A stretch of DNA of 33,080 nt from a virus (taxonomy: Duplodnaviria; Caudoviricetes). Shown one piece after another: positions 5,222 through 29,037 of the stretch. The notes under the pieces are model-generated. The model was not told the DNA's origin. It searched no databases and worked only from the letters and a program-made list of their open reading frames with translations. The translations under genes were made by a program, and so were the position numbers. The stretch is from positions 1 to 33,080 of the IMG/VR virus record IMGVR_UViG_3300020469_000149. One strand, 5' to 3'. Within the stretch, counting starts at the first letter, position 1. The number at the start of each line of letters is the position of its first letter.

Positions 5222-5645
5222 AGGTGGTTATCAAAAGCCAGCCAAACCCGCACCCGTGTCAGCCCCAGGCCGCTTATCACGCAGGACTGACGGTGGACCG
5301 GCGCAGATGACGCAGGAGATGACGGGACTGCCCTACGGGGAAAACGCCGACTACAACGAGATCCAGTCAAGCGCGCCACTACGAGCGACCCCAGGGGCGA
5401 GCGATATGCCACAAGCGAATCGCGGTTCCTCTGGGGCCGCTCGGAAGCCACCCACTCCCCTGTTTTCTCAAACGGAACGCCCTAACGAGCCGGTCACTGC
5501 TGGTTTGCCGTTTGGCCCAGGTGACGGCCCGACTCGCTCGACCAGGGGTTTTAAGCAATCTGATTCTTTCATGATGCTTGCGGATTCTCTTGGTGATGAG
5601 CGCATGTACAAGCTCGCACAGATGTTGCAAATCAGAGGGATGTAA
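5214..5645 (+). CDS. hypothetical Pro/Gly-rich virion-associated protein, 143 aa
   Basis: ATG 5214 after GGAGGGG; stop overlaps next ATG (TAATG). Confidence 0.75.
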   Translation: MPRGGYQKPAKPAPVSAPGRLSRRTDGGPAQMTQEMTGLPYGENADYNEIQSSAPLRATPGASDMPQANRGSSGAARKPPTPLFSQTERPNEPVTAGLPFGPGDGPTRSTRGFKQSDSFMMLADSLGDERMYKLAQMLQIRGM

Positions 5646-8600
5646 TGGCGACTGCTGATCGCATGGAGCGCGATATTCAGCGTCAACGGGAACAGCGGAA
5701 TGAACCTAACTCGCGTAACCCTTGGCCTGATATTGACGAGTACCTGAAAGCCACGGGCACGACGAACCTCGTGCCTAATCAGGATTTCCGCACCGATGAT
5801 CCGGTCGAGTTTCGTGAGCAAGACATTACTGACACTCGCCGCGAGATTAAGGGTGCGCAGCGGCGCATGGCTACGGGCGAATATGAGGGCATAGCCGCAT
5901 CTAACGCTTTCGCTACGACTAACGTTCCTGTCTCGACGTTCGTGCCAACGAGCCAGTCGAGCTTGTATGAGGCGAAGCTAGAGCTGCTCGAGCGGGAGCA
6001 AAACAGTCTCGGTAAGCCGGTGTACGGGCGTAGCAGATTGAGCCTTGGCGACACTGACCACTCCAATCAGGTGATGTTGGCTGCTGCGTTGGCCCGAAAG
6101 CACGGAGCCCCAATCGCGGCAAAAGACGTTGAGAATCTGATTAATTGGGAGCGCGTCAACCTTGCGGCTGACCGGATCGTCAAGCTGAACCTGGCTGACA
6201 AGCCGATTGCAGCTGACAACGTAGCCAGGACGTTCGCGGCAGACTTCTTTACGGGCGACCCTGAGGTTGACGTTGAGCTCGCCGCGCTATTCCAGGCCGC
6301 TGTCCAGATAAAGGTTGAGGACGACGGTATTGCAAAGCAGTTGATGGATGCGGCGGTTGACCCGACCATCATTAACACTTTCGCTGAGAGCGTCGGTGCT
6401 CGTCTAGTTCCAATATTGCAGAAGTACCTCGATAACGTCACTAACCCCATCCAGCAAACGGTTCGCGCTGTCGCGTTAACGGGCCGCGAGGTTTTTGGGA
6501 CTGATGATTTGGCTGTCGGGGATGGAAGCATCGTCGGAAACAGGCCGCTGGTTACTGAAACAAAATACAACGAAACGTACCTCGAGGATCTTGTAGCGAA
6601 AACTGACTTTACGGCTTACGAGGTTGATATCGCACGAACCCTGCACCAATCCTACGTGCGCAGGGACGGATCGGGTGAAGAAGTTATCCGCGACTTGTAC
6701 GAGAAGTACGGCGATGATGTTGAGTCGCGCATCATTCTCTCGAACATTGTCGAGAGTGCGTCGGGTGATCCTCGCTACTCGCAGCTCATGGCTCAAGTGG
6801 TTAGTGCATGGATGGGTAACACGGGACGGTTCCTTAACCCGTTCGGCCCCTCCCCCGCTACTAGCGAATATGCGGAAATAAACGACTCGAAACTTCTAGC
6901 TCAATCGTCTGCCGTTCTTGGCTTCCTTAGTGAAATCATTATTGACCCGCTGATCCTTGGGACTCCCCCACTGCGGGCTATCACTGCTACGCGCTACGCG
7001 CTTGCGAAACTAGCTCCTGGCGCGAAAGGCGGTGTCGGCTCGCTGGCGTTGAAGAGCCGCGCTTGGCATCCGACGAATAAGACGCAACGCGCTTTTCAGG
7101 CACTTGTTGATGACTTGAATCGTGTCGGTGACTTGCGTGCGAGCGGTGACACTGCCGGTGTAGCGGAAGCTCGCAGGCGACTGGCTCGACAGCACGGCGT
7201 TTATTGGAGCGACGAGATTATCGAGGCGGTAGCTCGGGAGGCTCCGCGCACGGATGGTCGGCTCACGGTCGAGGGTCTTGTCGAGTTCGCTGACAACATG
7301 AACGACGACTACCTAGACACGGTTCAGCACTACCTTAATGAAGCTGATGCTGCTGGCGTTACTGCTGCTGAGATACCTCAAATACTCGAACTTGTTTTGG
7401 ATGATCTTGGCGTGGAGTCGTTCGATCAGGCGATTGCCCGCACGAACAAGGCTAGTTTTCGAGCTTCTCGCAGGCCGCAAGCACCGAAGAGGACTCTTCT
7501 CGCGGATCTGCGAGCGAAAGTCGCTAACGCTGTTGGCGTGCGGTTTCTTCCAGTATCGAAGCAGGCGCAGATACTTGCCAAGTACGCCGACACATCTGAC
7601 CCCATACAGTTTTCTAAAGACCTGGCAGAGAACGGTATCGCTCTCGGTGATGACGTTCGGGTGTACAAGTCAGAAGGACTCGGTGGTGACGCCGCGGCAG
7701 TTACCGACTCGTCGGTAGCTGCGCAGGCTGATGAACTAACCCGAAACTTGATTCCATTTTCAGGCACTAACGTTGGCCGACCTTCCGCGGTGTGGGACAA
7801 CCTGGGGCGGGCTGCGAGCCGCATCGACACGAACCGCAAGTTCAACCTGAACAACGTTAATGATGCTGGCGCGATGTACAACTACGCGCGGCAGTTTCTT
7901 CCGCGCCACATGGCCGCACAAATCCGTAACGCCTGGGCGCAAGGCAACGTCGGTTCTCGACGCTTGCTAATGATCGGTCTTGTTCAGGCGGCTGGTCGCT
8001 CCCGTGGACTCCCCATAACTCGTCTTGAATCAACCAACATCGTGGACGGTCTTGCTGGTGCTGCCGGAAAGGGGCGGGCAGGTAAGGACGCTTACGGTAT
8101 TGAGATTTCGGGTGGCGAGGGGCTGCCCTCCGCGAAGCTGTTTGTTGCCGACCAGGAGCGTGCAGCTCGAGAAGCCGCTGCGCGAGCTGCTGCTACTCGA
8201 CAGCCAACCCCTGAGGATGACACGCTTCCCGTTGGGCAGCCGCTTTCTCGCTCAAAGGACGAACAGGCTCAAATTGATGAGGCATTTGACACGGTAACCG
8301 TCACCGTCAAGCCACCTACAAGATCCGACGCGGAGGATGACGCTATCCGCGACGTTGGTGGCGAGGAAGTCCTCATGGATGCGAGTCACCCGCAGCATGA
8401 GGCCGCGTGGGAGGAAATGACTCGAGCTGTCGAGGCGTGGCGGGCCGTAATGCTGATGGACGACGATCAAGTTGAGAAGATCCTTGACCACTACTTTGGA
8501 GTGCTGGACGATTCCGTTGATGACTCGTACCTAACGTGGTACGACCAACCGACGCTCGTTGGTGACGTTTACACCATCGAACCCAGCCTGCCTTCGGAGA

Positions 8601-11600
8601 TGACTGCCGGACTTAGCAGGACTGCTGACCAGAAGTTTATTGCTGACGGGACTATTTCACAGGCTGATCTGCGTCGCATGATTGATTATTGGGGCGTGGA
8701 GTACGTACACGCATGGCTTTACACGGGTCTTGGCGACAATTACTTGGTCGAAAACGCGATGGGCTTGTGGGGGGTGTCACCCGCCCCGCGGGTAAATATG
8801 GCGGGCGACTTACTACCTGGGAATGCGGCAATACCTACGGAATACATTGAGGGGCTCGGCGTACTTACCGCTTCTCGAGGCGGTCGCAGGGTCAAGACTG
8901 TCGATAAAGAGCAGATCAACATTGACGATATGACGCCGGAAGAAATCGAGGCGGCGTGGAAGCAGCACAGGAAGAAGCCCTCACGCAAGAGCCAGTACTT
9001 GCGCATCCAGGTTCCTTGGGCTAAAGGTGGTCGAAAGGGCCGGAAAGAGCAGGCCGTCGATGACCGCGACGAATGGATTTATGAACAACGTAAAATAGCG
9101 CGGCAGCAGCTTAAGGACGGCGAGCTCGATGACGCTATTGACGATTACTTGTCAACCGTTGTTCTCGGGTCGAGGCAGGAGCTTGTTCCTAAGACACCAG
9201 CACTTAAACCGACAGACCCGCCGAAGCCGTCCGATGACGTAGCACGCAACCTGGGTGACTCCGTTAACCCAGAAACGGGTGCTCGAGTACCTAGCGCGTT
9301 GCATTTTGATCAGACCGCAGACCAAATTGTTGTGCCGACGATTTCTGATTTTGAGACGTACAGAAACGACATAGGTGGGTACATCGGCCTGCTGCATCGG
9401 GGCGGCTATGGCTTGCAACGAGCGACTGATGGTTGGTCGTGGGGGACGCTCGCTGGTTACCGTTTCGGTCAACGCAACGCGATTGAGGAAAACCTGTTCT
9501 TCTTCCTGACGGGAGGACGACCATTCGATTGGGTTAGTGGCCGCCAGGTAACCACCACTCTGGGCAGGTTAAAGCCTGACGTTTACGTCACTAAGGGTCG
9601 CGGAAGCAAAAAAGGTGAAACACAGTTTATTTACAAGCAGAACGTGGGTTTCATTAACCGTTGGCTCGAATCGAGCCGCACGTTTGGCTGGCAGGTAGTG
9701 AAGGGTGACGGGCGTAACCTTCCGGACGTAATTGACGATTGGGCCGACCTGAACGGCCTCGGGGGTCAAATACTCAGGCATGTGATCGCGCCTGCGATGG
9801 TTCCTCGCGTCGGCATTAGAGGTAGAGGGCCAGCTAAGGGCAAGGTTCGTCAGGAAGATTTCATAAGTAATGAGGAATGGCGCACCGCCATAAACTTTCT
9901 TGTTGACGGCGACTCTGAGCCGTTCTACGAGTTGTTCCTGAGGGCTCTTGTTGCGCAGAAGATCGGCCCCGTCCCATTGACGATCCAAGAGAAGAAGCTG
10001 ATCGCTCGGGTAGCTACCGGAGATGCGGAGCGGGCACTACTCGAGGGCGTCACTGGCGCGGGACGGTTCATGAACAGCAGTGACCTCCCTGGGTACATGG
10101 ATGAGATGATCGGTGTCGCGGAGGAACTTCCCCCTGGTGTTGGTTACGCAGGCAGTAAGCCTCCCCCCGTCCGTGGCTCGGCTATCGGAGTTGATCGTGG
10201 ATACACCACGGCGACTGAGGTAACGGCGCGACTGAACGAGCATTGGCATCACCAGCTGAATTGGGTGATGAATGGCGATGGGCCGGTCGGTGAGCTGTCA
10301 GTGCAGCTTCTTCACTTAGTCTACCGCGGCGAGATGACTGTCGTTGAGGCGAAGCAACAGATTCGCACCCTGATCGCGTCGATGGACGAAAATGATGCTT
10401 GGTCACAGCGGTTCTCTAACTTGCAGCGTCCCGAAGATGTAGACCGTTTTTCTTCCGACTATTTCGAGTCAGTGCTCTCACTGTTCCAGCGGAAAGACGG
10501 GAGCATTAACGCGGAGCTGTTGCAGAAGTTTTTTAGCCCCGAAGGGAAATACTTGGGTTGGTACAGGCCAGCTCAGAAGCAACTCGACGGCGAAGGAATC
10601 ATATTAAAGGATCGCGTAACGGCCAGCGACCTCGCTCGCATCCCGAATGACGATTTACCGCCAGCTCTGCTTGTTCCTGAACAGGTAGATCCGCTTATTC
10701 CTGTCGCCACGGACACGGGAGGCTTGATTAACCACTCGTGGCGTTGGATGAACCGGCAAAACGCACGCTTGTCTAAAGGGCCGATTTTTTGGGCGAACGT
10801 CCTGCGCATCCATCGCAACACCGCGAAGCAGCGAGCCACTCTCGCAGACGAAATCGAAAGTAGAAGCCCAGGAGTCAATCGGGAAGCCATTGACGAAGCC
10901 GTCGAGGTACTCAGTACCCAAACGATCACGGAGCAGGCTTACGAGGCTTCTTTCGCGTACTTGGACAATCCGGCTGTTCGCACAAACGTCGCATGGAAGT
11001 CCCGTAACGTTTCCCGCTACTACCGCGCTACTGAGGATTTTTGGCGGCGTATTCGGCGGCTCGCGGTGCAGAACCCCGAAGCTATCGCTAAGGGAGCATT
11101 GATTTACGGGATCGCGCAGGACAACGGTTTTGTTTTCAAGGATCAGTTCGGGGCCGACTATTTCGCGCTACCTGGCAATCAGGTTTTACTGCGCACCCTA
11201 AGTGTCTTAATGAGCCAAGACCTAGGCATGTGGAACGAGGATATGCCTTACTCGATCACCGGCAAGGCACTCGCATCGAGCCCGTCCCTGGATTTCGAGA
11301 ACAACCTTGTCCCTGGACTTACAGGGATTTCTGCTGGGTTCACATCTATCGTGTTCGAGTTGGGGGATCTTGGTGACAAGTTCCCTGGCATACGTCAGCT
11401 CGCTCTTGGCCCGTACTACGAGCCTACGGGTCAGTGGTTCATTGATGCAGTGAACGCAGGGTTACCTGCTCACGCAAAGACATTATCGAACCTTCTTAAT
11501 CAAGAGGAGCGCGAAAGCGCGCAAGTTACGATGTATCTGCAAACACTAGCTTGGATGCACTCTCGAGGCGAGCTGGACACCTTGACAGTGAGGAACCCTG

Positions 11601-12760
11601 ACGGTTCCGTTACTGAACGTGAGTTCACGAGCTACGAGGACTTGAAGGGGACTGAGCAGGAGCAGTACGCAAATGCGTTAACGATAGCTGGGCTCAGAGC
11701 CAAAGACGTTATGCGGGTTTTCTCTGCTCCTCCCCCGCAACTGCGCGTTGATGACACGAGCCAGTTCGGTAAGCAGCTGGGTATCGAGAATCTTGCCGCG
11801 TACGAGAACATCCACAGGGAAGCCGTCATGGGCTTGTCTGATGAGTTTTTGAAAACTGTCGCTGAGTCGCGTGGTGACACGTACCTGTCTCCGCAGGATT
11901 ACGCGATGGATAACTGGATGGGTTTCCTGCTGGACGACTTGAAGGACAGCCCTTACGTGACGGGGAGCTACAACCTGTCCCCGTACCGCGTATCGACGTT
12001 CTCTACGGTGGGTGGGCCGACCTCGGAGGCGGCGATGGTGCAACCGTCCGTGGCGGCTATGGAGTGGTCGCGGGAGCCAGAGAATAAGAAGTGGCTCGAC
12101 AACGACGCTTACAGGGGTGCGTACTCGTTCTTTACACCTCGATCAGACCGCATTGAGTTCTCCTCAGCCATGTGGAAGCAGATGCGCTTTATTGACCGAA
12201 TCAAGGTGAAGAAGGAAGAGGAGCTGTACATCGACCAGCTGGCTAGGTCTGAGTACGACTACCTGATCGGTCGTGAGATTCAGCGAGACACTGAATACCG
12301 GCAAAACTTAAACGAGCTCGATCCAGGCTATTTCGATCAGCTCAAGTTCGCTGACAAACGAACCGAACTCGAGAAGGACAACCTGGAACGTGAGTACGGG
12401 TCTATGGCAACGAAAAATATGACGATGCGGCAGGGGTCGGCCCAGGAGTCGTACGAGGCGATGAACAGGCTGCTCGTTGAGCTGGATAAGGAATCTAACG
12501 ACGGCACTTATGGCGACCGCCCTGTTGCTCAACGTATTGCTTTCGTGAACCAGCAGTGGGAGCTGTGGGACGCGAGGCGTCTCGCTAACCCTGGAACAAC
12601 TAACAAGGACGAGCGTGAGCGGGCTAAGGCTGAACGGGATTTTTGGGCGAACGTGAAGGCGTACAACAATCCTCAAAATCCGGAAGTTAGGCATTACATC
12701 GGTGCAGTCATAGCGAGGCTCAAGATGACGAAGCTCGATAGCGTGGAAGGGGCTGCTTAA
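5645..12760 (+). CDS. very large putative internal virion (DNA ejection) protein, 2371 aa
   Basis: 7.1-kb ORF in the virion operon, coupled at both ends; mostly helical, without tape-measure repeats; function inferred from size and position. Confidence 0.7.
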   Translation: MATADRMERDIQRQREQRNEPNSRNPWPDIDEYLKATGTTNLVPNQDFRTDDPVEFREQDITDTRREIKGAQRRMATGEYEGIAASNAFATTNVPVSTFVPTSQSSLYEAKLELLEREQNSLGKPVYGRSRLSLGDTDHSNQVMLAAALARKHGAPIAAKDVENLINWERVNLAADRIVKLNLADKPIAADNVARTFAADFFTGDPEVDVELAALFQAAVQIKVEDDGIAKQLMDAAVDPTIINTFAESVGARLVPILQKYLDNVTNPIQQTVRAVALTGREVFGTDDLAVGDGSIVGNRPLVTETKYNETYLEDLVAKTDFTAYEVDIARTLHQSYVRRDGSGEEVIRDLYEKYGDDVESRIILSNIVESASGDPRYSQLMAQVVSAWMGNTGRFLNPFGPSPATSEYAEINDSKLLAQSSAVLGFLSEIIIDPLILGTPPLRAITATRYALAKLAPGAKGGVGSLALKSRAWHPTNKTQRAFQALVDDLNRVGDLRASGDTAGVAEARRRLARQHGVYWSDEIIEAVAREAPRTDGRLTVEGLVEFADNMNDDYLDTVQHYLNEADAAGVTAAEIPQILELVLDDLGVESFDQAIARTNKASFRASRRPQAPKRTLLADLRAKVANAVGVRFLPVSKQAQILAKYADTSDPIQFSKDLAENGIALGDDVRVYKSEGLGGDAAAVTDSSVAAQADELTRNLIPFSGTNVGRPSAVWDNLGRAASRIDTNRKFNLNNVNDAGAMYNYARQFLPRHMAAQIRNAWAQGNVGSRRLLMIGLVQAAGRSRGLPITRLESTNIVDGLAGAAGKGRAGKDAYGIEISGGEGLPSAKLFVADQERAAREAAARAAATRQPTPEDDTLPVGQPLSRSKDEQAQIDEAFDTVTVTVKPPTRSDAEDDAIRDVGGEEVLMDASHPQHEAAWEEMTRAVEAWRAVMLMDDDQVEKILDHYFGVLDDSVDDSYLTWYDQPTLVGDVYTIEPSLPSEMTAGLSRTADQKFIADGTISQADLRRMIDYWGVEYVHAWLYTGLGDNYLVENAMGLWGVSPAPRVNMAGDLLPGNAAIPTEYIEGLGVLTASRGGRRVKTVDKEQINIDDMTPEEIEAAWKQHRKKPSRKSQYLRIQVPWAKGGRKGRKEQAVDDRDEWIYEQRKIARQQLKDGELDDAIDDYLSTVVLGSRQELVPKTPALKPTDPPKPSDDVARNLGDSVNPETGARVPSALHFDQTADQIVVPTISDFETYRNDIGGYIGLLHRGGYGLQRATDGWSWGTLAGYRFGQRNAIEENLFFFLTGGRPFDWVSGRQVTTTLGRLKPDVYVTKGRGSKKGETQFIYKQNVGFINRWLESSRTFGWQVVKGDGRNLPDVIDDWADLNGLGGQILRHVIAPAMVPRVGIRGRGPAKGKVRQEDFISNEEWRTAINFLVDGDSEPFYELFLRALVAQKIGPVPLTIQEKKLIARVATGDAERALLEGVTGAGRFMNSSDLPGYMDEMIGVAEELPPGVGYAGSKPPPVRGSAIGVDRGYTTATEVTARLNEHWHHQLNWVMNGDGPVGELSVQLLHLVYRGEMTVVEAKQQIRTLIASMDENDAWSQRFSNLQRPEDVDRFSSDYFESVLSLFQRKDGSINAELLQKFFSPEGKYLGWYRPAQKQLDGEGIILKDRVTASDLARIPNDDLPPALLVPEQVDPLIPVATDTGGLINHSWRWMNRQNARLSKGPIFWANVLRIHRNTAKQRATLADEIESRSPGVNREAIDEAVEVLSTQTITEQAYEASFAYLDNPAVRTNVAWKSRNVSRYYRATEDFWRRIRRLAVQNPEAIAKGALIYGIAQDNGFVFKDQFGADYFALPGNQVLLRTLSVLMSQDLGMWNEDMPYSITGKALASSPSLDFENNLVPGLTGISAGFTSIVFELGDLGDKFPGIRQLALGPYYEPTGQWFIDAVNAGLPAHAKTLSNLLNQEERESAQVTMYLQTLAWMHSRGELDTLTVRNPDGSVTEREFTSYEDLKGTEQEQYANALTIAGLRAKDVMRVFSAPPPQLRVDDTSQFGKQLGIENLAAYENIHREAVMGLSDEFLKTVAESRGDTYLSPQDYAMDNWMGFLLDDLKDSPYVTGSYNLSPYRVSTFSTVGGPTSEAAMVQPSVAAMEWSREPENKKWLDNDAYRGAYSFFTPRSDRIEFSSAMWKQMRFIDRIKVKKEEELYIDQLARSEYDYLIGREIQRDTEYRQNLNELDPGYFDQLKFADKRTELEKDNLEREYGSMATKNMTMRQGSAQESYEAMNRLLVELDKESNDGTYGDRPVAQRIAFVNQQWELWDARRLANPGTTNKDERERAKAERDFWANVKAYNNPQNPEVRHYIGAVIARLKMTKLDSVEGAA

Positions 12761-13770: not shown

Positions 13771-14723
13771 GCGCAGATCCAAGCGATGCAAGTATGGAGT
13801 CATCTGATCGTCAGCGACTTAAGAGCGAGTATGTTGCTATTTTTCAGCTGGCTCAGAACGACCCGTCGGGTTTTCTTCTCGAGAAAGCCAAGCAATACAA
13901 GAAGCGGCTGAACAAGAACAACCCCAACGCTTTCGAGTCTGCTGCTGACGCACAGGACTTCTGGAACCGCGCCTTGCGGGAAAACGAGTTCTGGTCAAGC
14001 TTGCAACTTTCAGAACAGGCCGCAGCAACTAACCTTGCTGACCCGACTATGGCGGGTGAGGTCGAGGCACAGATTGGTGATAAGCGTCTTGCCATTGAGT
14101 CTCGGGCTGCTCAAGTCGGAGTTGATCTGGCAGAGGAAACGCTTGTTGCGTTATCGGATCAGGCTTACCGTGAGAATTGGGGCAGCCTCGATATCGAGAC
14201 TGCTCTGCAAGCTCAGGTTAATGAGCAGCTCTCGGCCAGCGAGGACAACCTTGGTTTTACTGGCAGCTTGGGTGCAGCCGCGTCGGAGCTTTCCGCGTGG
14301 AGCCGTAGGAACGGTTTAGAGATTTCGCAGGCTGACGCTGACAGTCTGCTGAGTAACGTCTCTTTCCAAAACATGACACTCGATGAAGTCAAGACTCAAC
14401 TGCGCTCGCAATACATGGTGGGTGCGTACCCGTCGTGGGCTGAGCAAATCCAGAACGGGTACGACATTTACGACTTGTCGGCTCCTTACCGCGGCGTCGC
14501 GGAACGGATGCTCGGGCGCACCAATGGCTCGCTCGGCATGAGTGATCCGATCTTGAAACAGATGATGCAGTACCAGGACGCGAACGGTCAGATGCGTATT
14601 CGACCTTTGTATGAGGCAGAGGAGTACATACGTGGCCTTGACGAGTGGCAAGGGAGCCTTGACGCGCAACAAACGTACGCACGGACAGTGAGCAGTGTCG
14701 GCAAAATGTTTGGATTTGGGTGA
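13767..14723 (+). CDS. putative internal virion protein, 318 aa
   Basis: GTGA overlap with upstream gene; helical; ends in GKMFGFG. Confidence 0.65.
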   Translation: MSADPSDASMESSDRQRLKSEYVAIFQLAQNDPSGFLLEKAKQYKKRLNKNNPNAFESAADAQDFWNRALRENEFWSSLQLSEQAAATNLADPTMAGEVEAQIGDKRLAIESRAAQVGVDLAEETLVALSDQAYRENWGSLDIETALQAQVNEQLSASEDNLGFTGSLGAAASELSAWSRRNGLEISQADADSLLSNVSFQNMTLDEVKTQLRSQYMVGAYPSWAEQIQNGYDIYDLSAPYRGVAERMLGRTNGSLGMSDPILKQMMQYQDANGQMRIRPLYEAEEYIRGLDEWQGSLDAQQTYARTVSSVGKMFGFG

Positions 14724-14728
14724 TCTGA

Positions 14729-15832
14729 GTGGCTACTCCTTATGATGAGAACCTACGCAATCACCAGAACATGCTGCAATACCAGCAGTATCTTGCTTCT
14801 CGAGGTTTAGCGTCTGTCGGTTCCGTTCAGCATATTCAGAATGTTGTTAGCGGGATTCAATCTCAAATAAACAACTACACCCCCCCACAGACTCCACAAG
14901 ACAGGACGCCTGCGCCTCGGCAGCCAACAGCTGCGGAGATAGCTCAAGCGCAAGAAAATATCCGTGCCGCTAATGAGAAGAAGAAGCTGGACGAGGAGGC
15001 TCGAGCGATCCTGCGCACCACGTTTGGTGGCTGGGGCGGCATGGAAGGTCTGATTGACCAGATCGACCAATTAATCGTGAAGTACGGAAACAACACTGAG
15101 GTCATTCTTAGCAAGGTCACGGAAACGGAACAGTACAAGACTCGATTTAAGGGCTTAGTGGATTTGCGGGCGCAAGGAATCACGGACATTCGCAACGAGG
15201 CTGAGTATCTGGGCTTGGAGCGGGACTACCGCGGAGTGTTCCGTGAAGCTGGTATGCGGGACTTCCTTGGGCCAGACGGTACGCAAACCCAATTCGACGC
15301 TATCGCGGAGCTCGTGACCGACTACTCCGTCAGCGTGAATGAGGTTCGCGCTCGAGTCACCGACGCTGCTCGAGTGGTCCAAGATACGAGCCCTGAGGTC
15401 GCTTCTGCTCTCGAGGAGTATTACGGCCTCGACGCAGCCACTCTCACTGAGTACGTCCTTGACCCTGTGCGCACGCAAAACAAGATCAACCAGATCAGTA
15501 ACGCGACCTTGCTGGGCGCAACGGCAGCTCGAGCAACACTTGATATTGACAAGGCCACTGCTGAGAGCGTCGCTTCCCTTTCTGGTGATGAAGATGTGAA
15601 CGTGGGAGCGTTTACGTCAGAGTTCGGTAAGGCAGCTGTGATTCGTGACGCTACTTCCCGTCTGTCGAACATCGAGGGTAGCGAACTAACGGACGATGAA
15701 GTCGTGAGCGCGCAGTTTGTTAACGATCCTGACGCAACAAAGAAGATTCGAGGCTTGCAGTCTCGGGAGCGAGCGCGCTTTAGTGGTCGATCTGGGATCA
15801 CTAGCTCCTCGCTTGACACTAATCGCGGGTAA
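14729..15832 (+). CDS. putative internal virion protein, 367 aa
   Basis: ORF in structural operon; C-terminal ERARFSGRSG motif. Confidence 0.65.
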   Translation: MATPYDENLRNHQNMLQYQQYLASRGLASVGSVQHIQNVVSGIQSQINNYTPPQTPQDRTPAPRQPTAAEIAQAQENIRAANEKKKLDEEARAILRTTFGGWGGMEGLIDQIDQLIVKYGNNTEVILSKVTETEQYKTRFKGLVDLRAQGITDIRNEAEYLGLERDYRGVFREAGMRDFLGPDGTQTQFDAIAELVTDYSVSVNEVRARVTDAARVVQDTSPEVASALEEYYGLDAATLTEYVLDPVRTQNKINQISNATLLGATAARATLDIDKATAESVASLSGDEDVNVGAFTSEFGKAAVIRDATSRLSNIEGSELTDDEVVSAQFVNDPDATKKIRGLQSRERARFSGRSGITSSSLDTNRG

Positions 15833-15838
15833 GACCGC

Positions 15839-15917
15839 GGGGGCGAATAGGTAAGACCTCACGAAAATCCCCAAGAGGGCAACGTGAGGAACGTGGGTTC
15901 GAATCCCACCGCCTCCA
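15839..15917 (+). ncRNA. minimal tmRNA-like RNA (tRNA-like domain only, alanine acceptor, no mRNA-like domain)
   Basis: acceptor GGGGGCG/CGCCTCC with G3.U70 and discriminator A; stemless D-loop AATAGGTAAGA; helix CCTCACG/CGTGAGG closing 19 nt; AAC linker; T-arm GTGGG-TTCGAAT-CCCAC; CCA not encoded. Confidence 0.8.
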
Positions 15918-15923
15918 CGCCGA

Positions 15924-16005
15924 CCAGGACCGACCGGCCCCTGGCGAGAAACAGTCCGGTAGTCAGAGCCATTAGGCACTCCCCCAAGTGTTTTCTGCGG
16001 CTGGC
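15924..16005 (+). promoter_or_regulatory. structured leader (H-type pseudoknot plus hairpin) upstream of scaffold gene
   Basis: CCAGG(15924-28)/CCTGG(15940-44) crossed by ACCGG(15933-37)/CCGGT(15956-60); AGCC/GGCT enclosing GGCACT/AGTGTT. Confidence 0.5.
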
Positions 16006-16036
16006 GATTCACATAGAAGAGATAGGGAGAACACCA

Positions 16037-16495
16037 ATGTCCGAAAACGACGAGTTCGACATCGACAACCTGGATGACGATTCGGGTACTGACGTTGTTC
16101 GACAGCTCCGCAAGGCATACAAGGCTAAGCAAAAGGAAGTAGATCAACTCCGCAAGCAAGTGGACGAGTTTTCTTCTGCCAGCCGGAAGAGTGTCGTAGA
16201 GGGCGTACTGACCGAAAAAGGCGTGGATGCGCGTATCAGCAAGTTCATCCCCGAATCGGTTACGACCGTTGATGAAGTTGAAGCCTGGATAGGTGAGAAC
16301 GCTGACTTGTTTGGGCTCGAGACGCAACCTCAGGGAGATTCTGAGGAAGTCCAGGCCGCAGCTCGTATCGCTTCCGTTGGGTCTGCCGCGACAGCGGTGG
16401 ACGCGGGTGATTTGCAAACCCGCATCGCTAATGCGCAGAGTCAAGAGGAGTTAAACGAACTTCTGTTTGGCAACAAGTACGGGCCGGTCAAGTAA
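16037..16495 (+). CDS. capsid scaffolding protein
   Basis: ATG after AGGGAG; acidic N-terminus and coiled coil (VVRQLRKAYKAKQKEVDQLRKQ); directly before major capsid gene. Confidence 0.8.
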   Translation: MSENDEFDIDNLDDDSGTDVVRQLRKAYKAKQKEVDQLRKQVDEFSSASRKSVVEGVLTEKGVDARISKFIPESVTTVDEVEAWIGENADLFGLETQPQGDSEEVQAAARIASVGSAATAVDAGDLQTRIANAQSQEELNELLFGNKYGPVK

Positions 16496-16537
16496 TCCAC
16501 ATCACTACTACACCCTTAAGGGGGGTGAATCGCAAGT

Positions 16538-17530
16538 ATGGCTGACAATTTTATTGACTCAGCATCTAACTCCGGTGCGTCTATTAAGACGCCGCCGACG
16601 GTTAGTTCGACGCTCGCAGCTGGTGGCACTGGCACTGGCTTTGATGATCTAGTTGCGCGCGCATACGACCGGATGATTGATTTCCAACTCCGGTCACAGG
16701 TCGTCTACCGCGACCTTGCCGATAAGCGTCCGGTGCAACAGGCTATGCCTGGGTACGCGGTCACGTTCTCTCTGTACAACGATCTGGCTCAGGCCACGAC
16801 ACCGTTGGCAGAGGTAACTGACCTCGATGCGGCTGCGCTTGACGACGTTGACCAAGTTAGCGTCGTTCTCAAAGAGTACGGCAACGTTGTTGTCAACACT
16901 CGTTATGTGCAGGAGACTGCGTTCGCTGACATTGATCCAGCGATCGCTAACCTCATCGGATTCAACATGGTGGACAGCCTGGACAAGGTTGTTTCTACCG
17001 TGCTGGACGGTGCTGCCGCTGGTCAGACCGAGGACTTGAACGCGGGCGTGATTACGGGTACTTCTATCCGTAAGGCCGTTGCCAAGCTCCGCGGCGATAA
17101 CGTGGTTCCGCGTCAGGGTTCGCTCTACGCGGCGTACATGCACCCAGATGTTGCTTTCGATCTGCGCAACGAGACAGGTGCGCTTTCGTTTGAGGATATT
17201 CGGAAGCACACGGAGCCAAACGTGGGGGCTCTCCTTGAGCAGACCACGGGCGTTTTTGGTGGCACTTATGTCATCGAAACCTCTCGCGCACCCATGGCTT
17301 CGGCCACGGGTCCTAGCGGTGAGGACGAGTACAGCACGTTCGTTGTTGGGCAGCAGGCACTCGCAGAAGCGTGCGCCGTTGAGCCCTCCGTGCGCCTCGG
17401 TCCGGTTGTGGATCGCCTTTCGAGGTTCCGCCCATACGGGTGGTACAGCCTGTGCGGGTGGTCACTTTATCGCACAGAGGCACTCCGCAAAATCACTTCG
17501 GGTTCAACGATTGCGACTAACGCAACCTAA
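16538..17530 (+). CDS. major capsid protein (N4-gp56-like, HK97 fold)
   Basis: 330 aa after scaffold; motifs LKEYGN, YAAYMHPDVAFDLR, D-LSRFRPYGWY; followed by strong hairpin. Confidence 0.9.
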   Translation: MADNFIDSASNSGASIKTPPTVSSTLAAGGTGTGFDDLVARAYDRMIDFQLRSQVVYRDLADKRPVQQAMPGYAVTFSLYNDLAQATTPLAEVTDLDAAALDDVDQVSVVLKEYGNVVVNTRYVQETAFADIDPAIANLIGFNMVDSLDKVVSTVLDGAAAGQTEDLNAGVITGTSIRKAVAKLRGDNVVPRQGSLYAAYMHPDVAFDLRNETGALSFEDIRKHTEPNVGALLEQTTGVFGGTYVIETSRAPMASATGPSGEDEYSTFVVGQQALAEACAVEPSVRLGPVVDRLSRFRPYGWYSLCGWSLYRTEALRKITSGSTIATNAT

Positions 17531-17548
17531 TCACTCTGAGTGAATGTG

Positions 17549-17576
17549 GGAGGGGTCGGCTTCGGTCGGCCCCTCC
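17549..17576 (+). terminator. GC-rich stem-loop after capsid gene (terminator or mRNA stabiliser)
   Basis: GGAGGGGTCGGC-TTCG-GTCGGCCCCTCC with cUUCGg tetraloop; no U-tract. Confidence 0.65.
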
Positions 17577-17594
17577 TCGCGTTAAGGAGATTTT

Positions 17595-17849
17595 GTGAAG
17601 ATTCTGACTACACCGCAGATAAGTGAGAAGTACGCGACGGATCGTTTGTTCGGCGACTTCGTGACCACGAAAACTCCACAGACTTTACTGATCGAGAGTG
17701 GCGTCGGGTCGCTCGTGTCGTTTCCTTCCGCGGAGCGACTGAGGCTGGCCGACAGCTACTTCCTGGGCGGCCACCGCCACGAACTAACTGACGCACAAGT
17801 CACGGCAATCACCGCTGCTGGCTTCTCCGCATACATCGAGGACGTTTAG
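17595..17849 (+). CDS. hypothetical virion-associated protein, 84 aa
   Basis: AAGGAG RBS, GTG start. Confidence 0.75.
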   Translation: MKILTTPQISEKYATDRLFGDFVTTKTPQTLLIESGVGSLVSFPSAERLRLADSYFLGGHRHELTDAQVTAITAAGFSAYIEDV

Positions 17850-28008: not shown

Positions 28009-29037
28009 CTAGACGGCCCGTAGCTGATTCTGGGCTTGCCCTGTCAGGTCGATTCGTGTCCCCGCTAGGAGGCTGTGGAGCTGGTTTTTCTCGATATCTC
28101 GGCCTATGTATTTCATGGTGTCTTTAATTGATTTGTGTCCCAGCATTTCGCTGACGCGCAGTAGGGCCGACTGTTCTCCTTGATTGAGGCGAAAATGGTC
28201 GAGCAACATTCGAGCTCCGCTACGCCGCAGCGCGTGGTTTCCGGTCTTGCCCTTGTATTCGGGGCCGACATATCCCAGCTCAGCGAAAGCCTTATTGACC
28301 GGCTCGTAAATGTGGGAGAGCTGCTCGTCCATGTTCATCGTGATTGGAGGCAGGAACGAAGTCTGGTGGTGGTTGAACACGCGCCTTTTGCGCCGCGGCG
28401 TCAAGACCCATTCGGGCCGTATTGATCCTTGTGTTTGCCGCACCCACTCGAAGTATCGCTCGAACTCATCGACCAGGTTGTCCACGATGGGATTTGATTT
28501 TTCTACCATTTCCGTCTGCTCGCCTGGGGTTGACTTGGGAACTCGGTAACGCATCCACTTACCCTTGAGGTCTACGTCCCCGAAGGTGAGGAGCTGTACC
28601 TCGCTTCCTCGAAGTAGTGAGAACAGTCCGACAGCTACGATCATTCGATCCCGCGGGTGGGACTTGTCGGCGGCCTCGAGTAAGTCATCGAACTCGGTGG
28701 CAGGAATCCAGAACATGCGAGAGTCCACCTCTCGAGCTGCCCGCCAACCGCGAGTCGGGTCGAAGCTAGGCTCCACGATCCCTCGATCACGGCAGAACTG
28801 AAAGAACTCCCGCAGGTTTCCTAAGTAAAGGTTGCGGGTTTTTGGAGCCCACTCGTGAGAGGAAAAATACTTGTCTACGTTGCTGGCGTTGATCCGACGA
28901 ACCATCGGATTTCCCCAAACTTTCTTGGCATGGTTGAGGGTCTGGATCTTGTTTTTTCGCGTGTTGGGCTTTAGTTTTCGAGCGACTATCCACTCGTCAT
29001 ATTGACGAGCTGCTGTGCTCAAAGTTTCGTGCGCCAT
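28009..29037 (-). CDS. int: tyrosine integrase
   Basis: LLRGSE (R), HALRRSGA (HxxR), LGHKSIKDTMKY (H, Y); SAM-like N-terminal domain; GGAGG RBS. Confidence 0.93.
   Translation of the reverse strand: MAHETLSTAARQYDEWIVARKLKPNTRKNKIQTLNHAKKVWGNPMVRRINASNVDKYFSSHEWAPKTRNLYLGNLREFFQFCRDRGIVEPSFDPTRGWRAAREVDSRMFWIPATEFDDLLEAADKSHPRDRMIVAVGLFSLLRGSEVQLLTFGDVDLKGKWMRYRVPKSTPGEQTEMVEKSNPIVDNLVDEFERYFEWVRQTQGSIRPEWVLTPRRKRRVFNHHQTSFLPPITMNMDEQLSHIYEPVNKAFAELGYVGPEYKGKTGNHALRRSGARMLLDHFRLNQGEQSALLRVSEMLGHKSIKDTMKYIGRDIEKNQLHSLLAGTRIDLTGQAQNQLRAV

What the first reader, a model, noticed from the sequence alone, without database searches (positions are those of the whole stretch)
15839..15917. Minimal tmRNA: tRNA-like domain only, embedded in the phage virion operon
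Seen: a 79-nt intergenic sequence, 6 nt after a stop codon, folding as 7-bp acceptor GGGGGCG/CGCCUCC with G3.U70 and discriminator A, an 11-nt D-loop with no D-stem (AAUAGGUAAGA), a perfect 7-bp helix CCUCACG/CGUGAGG, a 3-nt AAC linker and a canonical T-arm GUGGG-UUCGAAU-CCCAC. Established: this layout (GGGG-GA...GG...GAC start, no D-stem, P2, RAC linker, alanine identity) is the SmpB-binding tRNA-like domain of tmRNA, not a tRNA; normal tmRNAs carry roughly 270 nt of pseudoknots and tag ORF where this has a 19-nt loop; tag-less versions are known mainly from protist mitochondria. CCA is not encoded, as is common in actinobacterial tRNA genes. Inference: a phage mini-tmRNA excised from late mRNA that may (a) be alanylated and titrate SmpB/EF-Tu to blunt host trans-translation, (b) rescue stalled ribosomes without a degradation tag, (c) decoy tRNA-targeting defences, or (d) act in cis as a processing site that frees the scaffold-capsid mRNA. 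Intact pairing in every helix argues against simple decay. I do not know of a described phage system like this, but cannot check the literature.
Basis: partly seen in the sequence, partly recalled or inferred. Interest (0 to 1): 0.9.

Follow-up and report, generated by a model that had tools for sequence, protein, structure and literature searches.

The report
Phage mini-tmRNA with altered SmpB loop
A marine phage carries a real, conserved 79-base gene that keeps only the alanine-accepting, tRNA-like end of the bacterial ribosome-rescue RNA (tmRNA); this kind of phage RNA is already published for one phage, and it likely short-cuts or interferes with the host's rescue-and-tag system, although in this phage lineage the loop that normally grips the partner protein SmpB is altered.

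Summary
15839-15917 folds as described and fits Rfam tmRNA (41.3 bits, E 4e-15) better than tRNA (26.5). It is not a new kind: mycobacteriophage DS6A has a published 'TLD only' tmRNA of the same layout, and this scan reported the class at least eight times on other DNA. It is under selection: 37 of 38 distinct copies in capsid-related phages keep G3.U70, all paired stems vary by compensation, and none of 97 loci holds a full-length tmRNA. New here: 0 of those 38 keep tmRNA's GG..UYGA SmpB-contact loop (30 of 30 bacterial tmRNAs and DS6A do); 35 have a shorter tRNA-type GGNNAG loop, keeping G19 and A334. The site is the lineage's tRNA-cargo slot: cultured Streptomyces relatives put 21-22 annotated tRNAs there, others an ordinary tRNA or a ~45-nt tRNA-like stub, and 99 of 108 leader-selected slots are empty, so cis processing is not required. 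Best reading (0.45): an alanylated mimic that, with host SmpB, enters stalled ribosomes without tagging and competes with tmRNA; charging, binding and expression are untested. The adjacent pseudoknotted scaffold leader is separate and was also noted before.

The parts
15839..15917 (+). TLD-only (tag-less) mini-tmRNA gene, 79 nt to the discriminator; CCA not encoded
   Evidence: sequence; fold; Rfam RF00023 41.3 bits E 4.4e-15; RF00005 26.5 bits
15839..15845 (+). acceptor stem 5' strand (pairs with 15910-15916); G3 at 15841 pairs with U70 at 15914; discriminator A15917
   Evidence: G3.U70 in 37 of 38 distinct lineage copies, pairs 4-7 vary by compensation
15846..15856 (+). stemless D-loop of GGNNAG type; G15855 is the G19 equivalent, the U17-C18 positions are A-A and the loop is one base shorter than in tmRNA
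   Evidence: alignment to RF00023
15857..15889 (+). P2 arm: 7-bp helix 15857-15863/15883-15889, A-rich bulge, 3-bp cap hairpin 15869-15879, in place of the pseudoknots and tag frame
   Evidence: same layout in relatives and DS6A
15890..15909 (+). AAC linker (A334-C335 equivalents kept, G333 replaced) and canonical T-arm
   Evidence: linker ends in AC in 37 of 38 lineage copies, GAC in 3 of 38
15921..16005 (+). separate conserved structured leader directly 3' of the mini-tmRNA: stem 15921-15928/15940-15946, pseudoknot 15933-15937/15956-15960, hairpin 15962-16005 with a C-rich loop 15980-15987
   Evidence: covariation (22 of 27 pairs with two-sided changes, 92% of cells paired), second sample; no Rfam match
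14729..15832 (+). upstream 367-aa virion-module gene (PHROG 8424, unknown function); homologous to gp13 of Streptomyces phages Kumquat and Immanuel3, which marks the slot as syntenic
16037..16495 (+). 152-aa gene, putative head scaffold (by position before the capsid gene; PHROG 7813 is of unknown function, no Pfam match)
   Evidence: scaffold identity is inference
16538..17530 (+). major capsid protein (PHROG 1357); 42-46% identical to capsids of Streptomyces Beephvirinae phages

Best explanation
The phage encodes a stand-alone tRNA-like domain of tmRNA with alanine identity and no tag frame; it is likely cut out of the late transcript by host tRNA-processing enzymes, likely given CCA and alanine, and would then, with host SmpB and EF-Tu, enter ribosomes stalled on broken mRNA, take over the nascent chain and add alanine but no degradation tag, so competing with host tmRNA. 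Shown: the gene, its fold, its place in the lineage's tRNA slot, and selection on the fold and on G3.U70. Established elsewhere: a TLD plus SmpB is enough for ribosome entry and alanine transfer in vitro, and a TLD-only RNA inhibits tmRNA in E. coli. Inferred: processing, charging, SmpB binding by the altered loop, how the ribosome is finally released (drop-off and peptidyl-tRNA hydrolase, or a back-up release factor), and the benefit (phage proteins and ribosomes spared from tagging when late mRNA is cut).
For: G3.U70 in 37 of 38 distinct lineage copies found through the capsid gene, with compensatory changes in acceptor pairs 4-7 and T-stem pairs 49-52. Class-wide control: the G3.U70 pattern gives about 2,600 stretches, 77 of 120 sampled being TLD-only; the same pattern with G3-C70 gives about 300, at most 7 of 120 sampled not being ARAGORN tRNAs with a P2-like helix. 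G19 and A334, named as SmpB contacts in PMC8363625, are kept. TLD plus SmpB makes polyalanine without template (Shimizu and Ueda 2006 as cited in PMC3929946 and PMC2481249). The DS6A form or a similar molecule inhibits tmRNA (Mao 2009 as cited in PMC4131195 and PMC11915505). The slot holds 21 and 22 annotated tRNA genes in Streptomyces phages Kumquat and Immanuel3, so it is a place for trans-acting RNAs. No SmpB gene found in this 82%-complete record, so any SmpB would be the host's.
Against: 0 of 38 lineage copies have the GG..UYGA loop found in 30 of 30 bacterial tmRNAs, in DS6A and in 41 of 86 other viral TLD-only RNAs; 35 of 38 have GGNNAG and only 3 of 38 a GAC linker. PMC8363625 says weakening the C18-G19 stack destabilises the SmpB complex, so SmpB binding may be weak or lost. 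Ordinary tRNAs and non-alanine ~45-nt stubs replace it in 16 of 61 distinct slots, which a purely SmpB-directed function does not explain. Repeated alanine addition could itself make a degradation signal (own knowledge of alanine tails). No expression or processing evidence was obtained.
Confidence: 0.45

Rival explanations
1. SmpB-independent alanyl-RNA: this lineage's loop has reverted to a tRNA-type D-loop, and the RNA works as a charged, anticodon-less tRNA mimic, a decoy for defences or toxins that act on tRNA acceptor ends or EF-Tu complexes, or an alanine donor with another protein partner.
For: Loop motif lost in 38 of 38 lineage copies while G3.U70 is kept in 37; GGNNAG matches the tRNA G18-G19-N-N-A21-G22 run (own knowledge of tRNA numbering); 22 of 86 other viral TLD-only RNAs share it; it is interchangeable with true tRNAs in the slot. 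Defence systems predicted to bind tmRNA or tRNA exist (PMC11090510, passages).
Against: G19, A334 and C335 and the open, stemless elbow are still tmRNA-like; without an anticodon it is a poor decoy for anticodon nucleases; no partner gene was identified (one search tested SmpB only).
Confidence: 0.25
2. Cis punctuation: the element is kept mainly as an RNase P / RNase Z substrate whose removal creates the 5' end of the scaffold-capsid mRNA just ahead of the pseudoknotted leader.
For: In 54 of 61 distinct capsid-selected slots some tRNA-like element ends with its discriminator directly before the leader: 38 TLD, 5 tRNA, 11 stubs of about 45 nt without G3.U70 (hand-corrected, folds); CCA is encoded in only 4 of 38; in tandem cases (L166, L196, L197) the last element still abuts the leader.
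Against: 99 of 108 distinct leader-selected slots are empty (hand-corrected); a processing site does not need G3.U70, yet TLD copies keep it; TLD-only RNAs occur in unrelated settings, e.g. DS6A between gp33 and the polymerase-subunit gene. Cleavage there is best seen as a by-product.
Confidence: 0.13
3. Pure SmpB sponge: the RNA inhibits trans-translation by sequestering SmpB, whether charged or not.
For: [quoted passage not shown]
Against: It predicts conservation of the SmpB loop and freedom at G3.U70; the lineage shows the reverse.
Confidence: 0.12
4. Neutral relic of a captured tmRNA gene or of an integration site.
For: The slot is optional; one copy (L026) has lost half of the P2 helix and one (L174/L176) has G3-C70.
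Against: Stems are kept by compensation at 67-91% identity among copies; ARAGORN finds no tmRNA in 97 capsid loci; both ends are present and the integrase gene is 12 kb away.
Confidence: 0.05

Closest known systems
'TLD only' (CDS-less, standard-order) tmRNA of Mycobacterium phage DS6A (Hudson, Lau and Williams 2014, PMC4131195; Nawrocki, Petrov and Williams 2025, PMC11915505; located here at JN698994.1 28478-28557)
   Same: About 80 nt; GGGG acceptor with G3.U70 and discriminator A; no D-stem; P2 helix, A-rich bulge and short cap hairpin; NAC linker; canonical T-arm; no tag frame; CCA not encoded; phage-borne and unannotated in the record.
   Different: DS6A keeps the UCGA SmpB loop; this lineage has GGNNAG. 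DS6A's copy lies between gp33 and the DNA polymerase III subunit gene; this one lies in a tRNA-cargo slot abutting a structured leader before the putative scaffold gene of a podophage-like lineage related to Beephvirinae.
Standard bacterial tmRNA (Rfam RF00023)
   Same: Both ends of the model match (41.3 bits): acceptor, G3.U70, stemless D-loop, P2, T-arm.
   Different: Below the 47-bit cut-off; the model's 296 middle positions (pseudoknots, tag frame) are absent; D-loop and linker motifs differ from 30 of 30 sampled tmRNAs.
CDS-less organellar tmRNAs (mitochondrial RF02544; ~65-nt plastid forms reported in PMC11915505)
   Same: Tag-less, alanine-type TLD, thought to help with incomplete mRNAs together with SmpB.
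   Different: No match to RF02544; mitochondrial forms are circularly permuted (72 'permuted, no CDS' entries; the permutation of mitochondrial forms is own knowledge); this gene is in standard order and viral.
tRNA gene arrays of Streptomyces Beephvirinae phages (Kumquat OR193800.1, Immanuel3 MG518520.1)
   Same: Same slot between the gp13 homolog and the gene before the capsid gene; last RNA abuts a leader whose 3' hairpin weakly matches the leader model (E 0.001-0.01).
   Different: They hold 21-22 annotated ordinary tRNAs; by eye none of the larger gaps folded as a TLD-only RNA.

Membership tests
TLD-only phage tmRNA (DS6A type) | 7-bp acceptor with G1-C72, G2-C71, G3.U70 and discriminator A | tested here: met
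   37 of 38 lineage copies have U70 (that parser required GGG at 1-3, the parser did not and found no TLD with another start)
TLD-only phage tmRNA (DS6A type) | No D-stem, no anticodon arm; P2 helix closed by a short cap; canonical T-arm; standard order | tested here: met
TLD-only phage tmRNA (DS6A type) | No tag reading frame or pseudoknot ring | tested here: met
   19 nt between the P2 strands; 296 model positions skipped
TLD-only phage tmRNA (DS6A type) | Canonical SmpB-contact loop (U17-C18-G19-A20) as in DS6A and bacterial tmRNA | tested here: not met
   0 of 38 lineage copies against 30 of 30 bacterial tmRNAs and DS6A; G19 and A334 equivalents are kept
TLD-only phage tmRNA (DS6A type) | Inhibits host trans-translation when expressed | not testable with these tools
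   needs a reporter assay; reported for the DS6A form or a similar molecule only
Standard tmRNA (RF00023) | Reaches the 47-bit gathering score with mRNA-like domain | tested here: not met
   41.3 bits, no MLD
Standard tmRNA (RF00023) | Alanylated, RNase P-processed, SmpB-bound in vivo | not testable with these tools
   only assembled contigs were available
Ordinary tRNA (RF00005) | Cloverleaf with D-stem and 7-nt anticodon loop | tested here: not met
   ARAGORN 0 genes; 26.5 bits, under the 29 cut-off
Mitochondrial tmRNA (RF02544) | Match to the mt-tmRNA model | tested here: not met
   no match at E <= 1
attP fragment of a tmRNA gene | Only the 3' end of ssrA, next to the integrase | tested here: not met
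   both ends present; integrase at 28009-29037

The most novel reading that the evidence does not exclude
The GGNNAG form is a separate, widespread class of phage RNA: an anticodon-less alanine carrier that descends from tmRNA's tRNA-like domain, has abandoned SmpB, and works with another partner or as a decoy against tRNA-directed defences. In this lineage it shares one slot with true tRNAs and ~45-nt tRNA-like stubs that also act as RNase P/Z punctuation at the head of the pseudoknotted scaffold leader.
Probability: 0.22. Interest if true: 0.8.

Novelty: new variant of a known kind. Interest (0 to 1): 0.45.

Why it matters
The 2025 tmRNA database lists 9 standard-order, CDS-less sequences among 97,179 (PMC11915505), yet one pattern suggests on the order of 1,700 viral stretches with such RNAs (77 of 120 sampled, scaled to about 2,600; an extrapolation), mostly missed by ARAGORN. 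They point to ribosome rescue as a common phage target. This lineage separates two explanations cleanly: alanine identity is kept while the SmpB loop is changed, so comparing a GGNNAG copy with a UCGA copy in one binding and tagging assay would show whether charging, SmpB capture or something else is the selected function, and whether rescue without a tag works, which is also the open question for organellar tag-less tmRNAs.

Tried and rejected
Expression: 7 RNA runs hold part of 14700-17600; 4 of them were laid, all assembled contigs at depth under 8, spread evenly over the genes, one contig covering 15840-15990; contigs show no ends, strand or level and DNA carry-over is not excluded, so nothing follows. 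Host: the genome-contig scan gave 5 short contigs in assemblies of five unrelated taxa, read as probable mis-binning and not used for the host; the integrase had no match in cultured phages; no WhiB-like motif in six frames. blastn of the 82-mer against cultured phages gave only short T-arm-sized matches. No sigma-70 promoter match in 14500-17700 and no terminator next to the gene. MAFFT misaligned the 5' ends of 16 TLDs, so pair counts were made by structure-anchored parsing instead; an automatic D-loop register slipped on several rows and was replaced by motif counts. A first leader regex found nothing and was rewritten. An HDV-like/theta ribozyme reading of the leader was considered and dropped: the covarying helices do not have the nested HDV order and Rfam gave no ribozyme match. 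Pairing of the leader's C-rich loop with the ribosome-binding site is possible but shows no covariation because both sides are invariant. The literature search for scaffold autoregulation returned nothing relevant. A two-piece (permuted) tmRNA was rejected: the ends are in standard order.

Full report
Observation. The sequence and folds confirm every element at 15839-15917: 7-bp acceptor with G3.U70, discriminator A, stemless 11-nt D-loop, 7-bp P2, AAC linker, T-arm, no encoded CCA, 6 nt after the stop of ORF 14729-15832. The 79-mer folds this way at -34.2 kcal/mol (z -3.2). ARAGORN finds no gene and no Rfam family reaches its cut-off, but RF00023 matches both ends (41.3 bits, E 4.4e-15) and outscores tRNA (26.5 bits); mt-tmRNA does not match. 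The tmRNA score alone does not identify it, since 76-nt elements in bacterial genomes reach 42-44 bits with that model too; the identification rests on the missing D-stem and anticodon arm and on the low tRNA score. The '19-nt loop' holds a 3-bp cap hairpin after an A-rich bulge.

Setting. The window is an 82%-complete virus record with terminase, portal, major capsid, tail-fibre, endolysin and integrase genes; marine RNA libraries hold pieces of it. Its closest cultured relatives are Streptomyces phages of the Beephvirinae (35 records, capsid 42-46%), which suggests but does not show an actinobacterial host. In Kumquat and Immanuel3 the stretch between the homolog of ORF 14729-15832 and the gene before the capsid gene holds 21 and 22 annotated tRNA genes. 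The mini-tmRNA therefore sits in the lineage's tRNA-cargo slot.

Prior knowledge. PMC4131195 (passages) lists 'Mycobacterium phage DS6A (TLD only)' and says a similar molecule, chargeable or not, strongly inhibits tmRNA, perhaps by titrating SmpB (Mao 2009). PMC11915505 (part 1 of 5 and passages) counts 9 'standard, no CDS' sequences among 97,179 and says the DS6A form itself inhibited tmRNA in E. coli; the two wordings differ and I did not see Mao 2009. I located the DS6A RNA at 28478-28557: same layout, but with a UCGA loop. Nine literature searches found no paper on the spread of these RNAs or on the loop variant; the library lacks most subscription journals. PMC9004378 (passages) counts ARAGORN-called tmRNAs in 402 of 18,146 phages, which would miss most short forms. 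PMC10690425 (passages and 7 supplementary files; files 1 and 2 unreadable) gave no match to two leader motifs but may hold these RNAs in the unread files. This scan has reported the class at least eight times on other DNA and the leader once.

Selection. Capsid searches ([best 80 of 580], 43) gave 102 loci. With the window, 61 distinct slots remained after dropping 31 duplicates, 8 without a recognisable leader and 3 too short. After hand correction (L039 to TLD; L033, L035, L041, L042, L358 to stub) they hold 38 TLD-only RNAs, 5 ordinary tRNAs (Tyr, Ile, a Met-like one; ARAGORN), 11 tRNA-like stubs of about 45 nt and 7 nothing. ARAGORN found no tmRNA in the 97 viral capsid loci, so there is no series of deletions from a full-length gene here. 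Among 38 distinct TLD sequences (one spurious parse dropped; perfect acceptor and T-stem pairing and a GGG start were required by that parser) 37 have U70, acceptor pairs 4-7 and T-stem pairs 49-52 change on both sides, lengths run 70-97 nt, and 4 encode CCA. TLD identity does not follow capsid identity (L024 and L220: TLD 91% alike; window and L021: 67% with capsids 92% alike), so the cassette is exchanged. Class-wide, a pattern demanding G3.U70 gave about 2,600 stretches (120 from 4 of 64 parts), 77 of 120 TLD-only by a strict parse, 26 unparsed. The same pattern with G3-C70 gave about 300 (120 from 26 of 64 parts): 62 tRNAs, 18 labelled TLD of which 11 are ARAGORN tRNAs, 38 unparsed, 2 other. 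Alanine identity is thus favoured about a hundredfold (extrapolated).

The SmpB loop. PMC8363625 (passages) places SmpB on A15, U17, A334 and on G19 stacked with C18. All 30 distinct full-length tmRNAs parsed from 31 bacterial loci (mostly one phylum, not the likely host's) have GG..UYGA and a GAC linker; so do DS6A's loop and 41 of 86 TLD-only RNAs from the broad viral sample (89 parsed, 3 ordinary tRNAs removed; 22 GGNNAG, 23 other). In this lineage 0 of 38 have it, 35 have GGNNAG, 37 end the linker in AC and 3 have GAC. So the bases equivalent to G19 and A334 are kept, U17-C18 and G333 are not. This is the feature that makes it a variant and the main doubt about the mechanism. No SmpB gene was found in the record.

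Cis role. Whenever the slot is filled, the last element's discriminator lies just before a conserved leader, whose helices and pseudoknot are well supported (22 of 27 pairs with two-sided changes, 0 of 500 shuffles as high, slid controls 33-53% paired; top covarying pairs). But a scan for the leader itself (about 2,000 stretches; 120 from 4 of 64 parts) gave 108 distinct slots (5 duplicates, 5 without leader, 2 too short), 99 of them empty, 5 TLD, 2 tRNA, 2 stubs (with L365 and L401 corrected by hand). The classifier missed 5 stubs in the capsid set, so it may undercount here; in the rows that I saw (the output for L403-L433 was cut) the leader mostly follows the upstream stop codon directly. 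The leader works without a tRNA-like element; cutting the RNA out would still create a new mRNA 5' end as a by-product.

Mechanism. A TLD with SmpB supports ribosome entry and polyalanine synthesis without template (Shimizu and Ueda 2006 as cited in PMC3929946 and PMC2481249, passages). Selection on G3.U70 argues that the alanyl group matters, which pure SmpB titration does not need. I therefore favour (0.45) a charged mimic that uses host SmpB and EF-Tu to take nascent chains from stalled ribosomes without adding the tag, competing with tmRNA. Rivals: an SmpB-independent alanyl-RNA or decoy (0.25; PMC11090510, passages, shows only that such defences are predicted), cis punctuation (0.13), pure sponge (0.12), relic (0.05). 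Processing, charging, binding and expression are all untested.

Verdict. Real, conserved and selected; a new variant of the known DS6A-type tag-less phage tmRNA, not a new kind. Interest 0.45: the class is known and already found repeatedly by this scan, but the lineage-wide loop change with kept alanine identity, and the interchange with tRNAs and stubs in one slot, make a direct test of what these RNAs are for.

Noticed in passing
window 15921-16039; L014-L043, L164-L230, L361-L480: A pseudoknotted structured leader precedes the putative scaffold gene throughout this phage lineage (about 2,000 viral stretches), strongly covarying, with no Rfam match. Its invariant C-rich loop could pair with the GGG of the ribosome-binding site (no covariation to prove it); probably a translational control element. 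Its 3' hairpin weakly matches cultured Streptomyces phages. Noted before by this scan (e1-6097735).
   Followed up: partly
L200:2296-2339, L165:759-801, L166, L221, L224:2302-2347, L225:2289-2333, L033:600-646, L035, L041, L042, L358:255-299, L366, L434: About 45-nt tRNA-like stubs (6-bp acceptor, one short hairpin, T-like arm, discriminator) replace the mini-tmRNA in the same slot; none has G3.U70. Folding support is mixed (z -2.9 to -0.3 for 6 tested); no Rfam match for L200 and no earlier scan note by sequence. Possibly minimal RNase P substrates.
   Followed up: partly
L166:1382-1516, L196:2065-2337, L197:1960-2289: Tandem cargo in the slot: mini-tmRNA followed by a stub (L166) or by a tRNA-Tyr / tRNA-Ile gene (L196, L197); the last element always abuts the leader.
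   Followed up: partly
L039:2260-2300 and L040:1270-1318: A further conserved stem-loop element of about 55 nt lies just upstream of the mini-tmRNA in these two relatives; not identified.
   Followed up: no
L031:1890-2290, L032:1700-2300, L038:1400-1790, L040:700-1250: Short, very lysine/alanine-rich small ORFs are inserted between the 367-aa gene and the mini-tmRNA in some relatives; possibly DNA-binding core proteins.
   Followed up: no
L026:2300-2370; L174 and L176: Two damaged or deviant copies: L026 lacks 10 nt of the P2 3' strand relative to otherwise identical neighbours (could be an assembly error); L174/L176 has G3-C70.
   Followed up: no
L352:3391-3475 and L353:1452-1539: Unannotated gaps in the Streptomyces phage tRNA arrays contain a T-arm followed by a D-arm-like stretch, as in a circularly permuted or overlapping tRNA-like arrangement; not analysed.
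   Followed up: no
window 5645-12760: A 2,371-aa ORF in the virion module with no PHROG or Pfam match; by position a large internal virion (ejection) protein.
   Followed up: no
L190, L217, L226-L230: Capsid matches in these loci span about 170-250 bases more than expected, suggesting an insertion or intron in the capsid gene.
   Followed up: no
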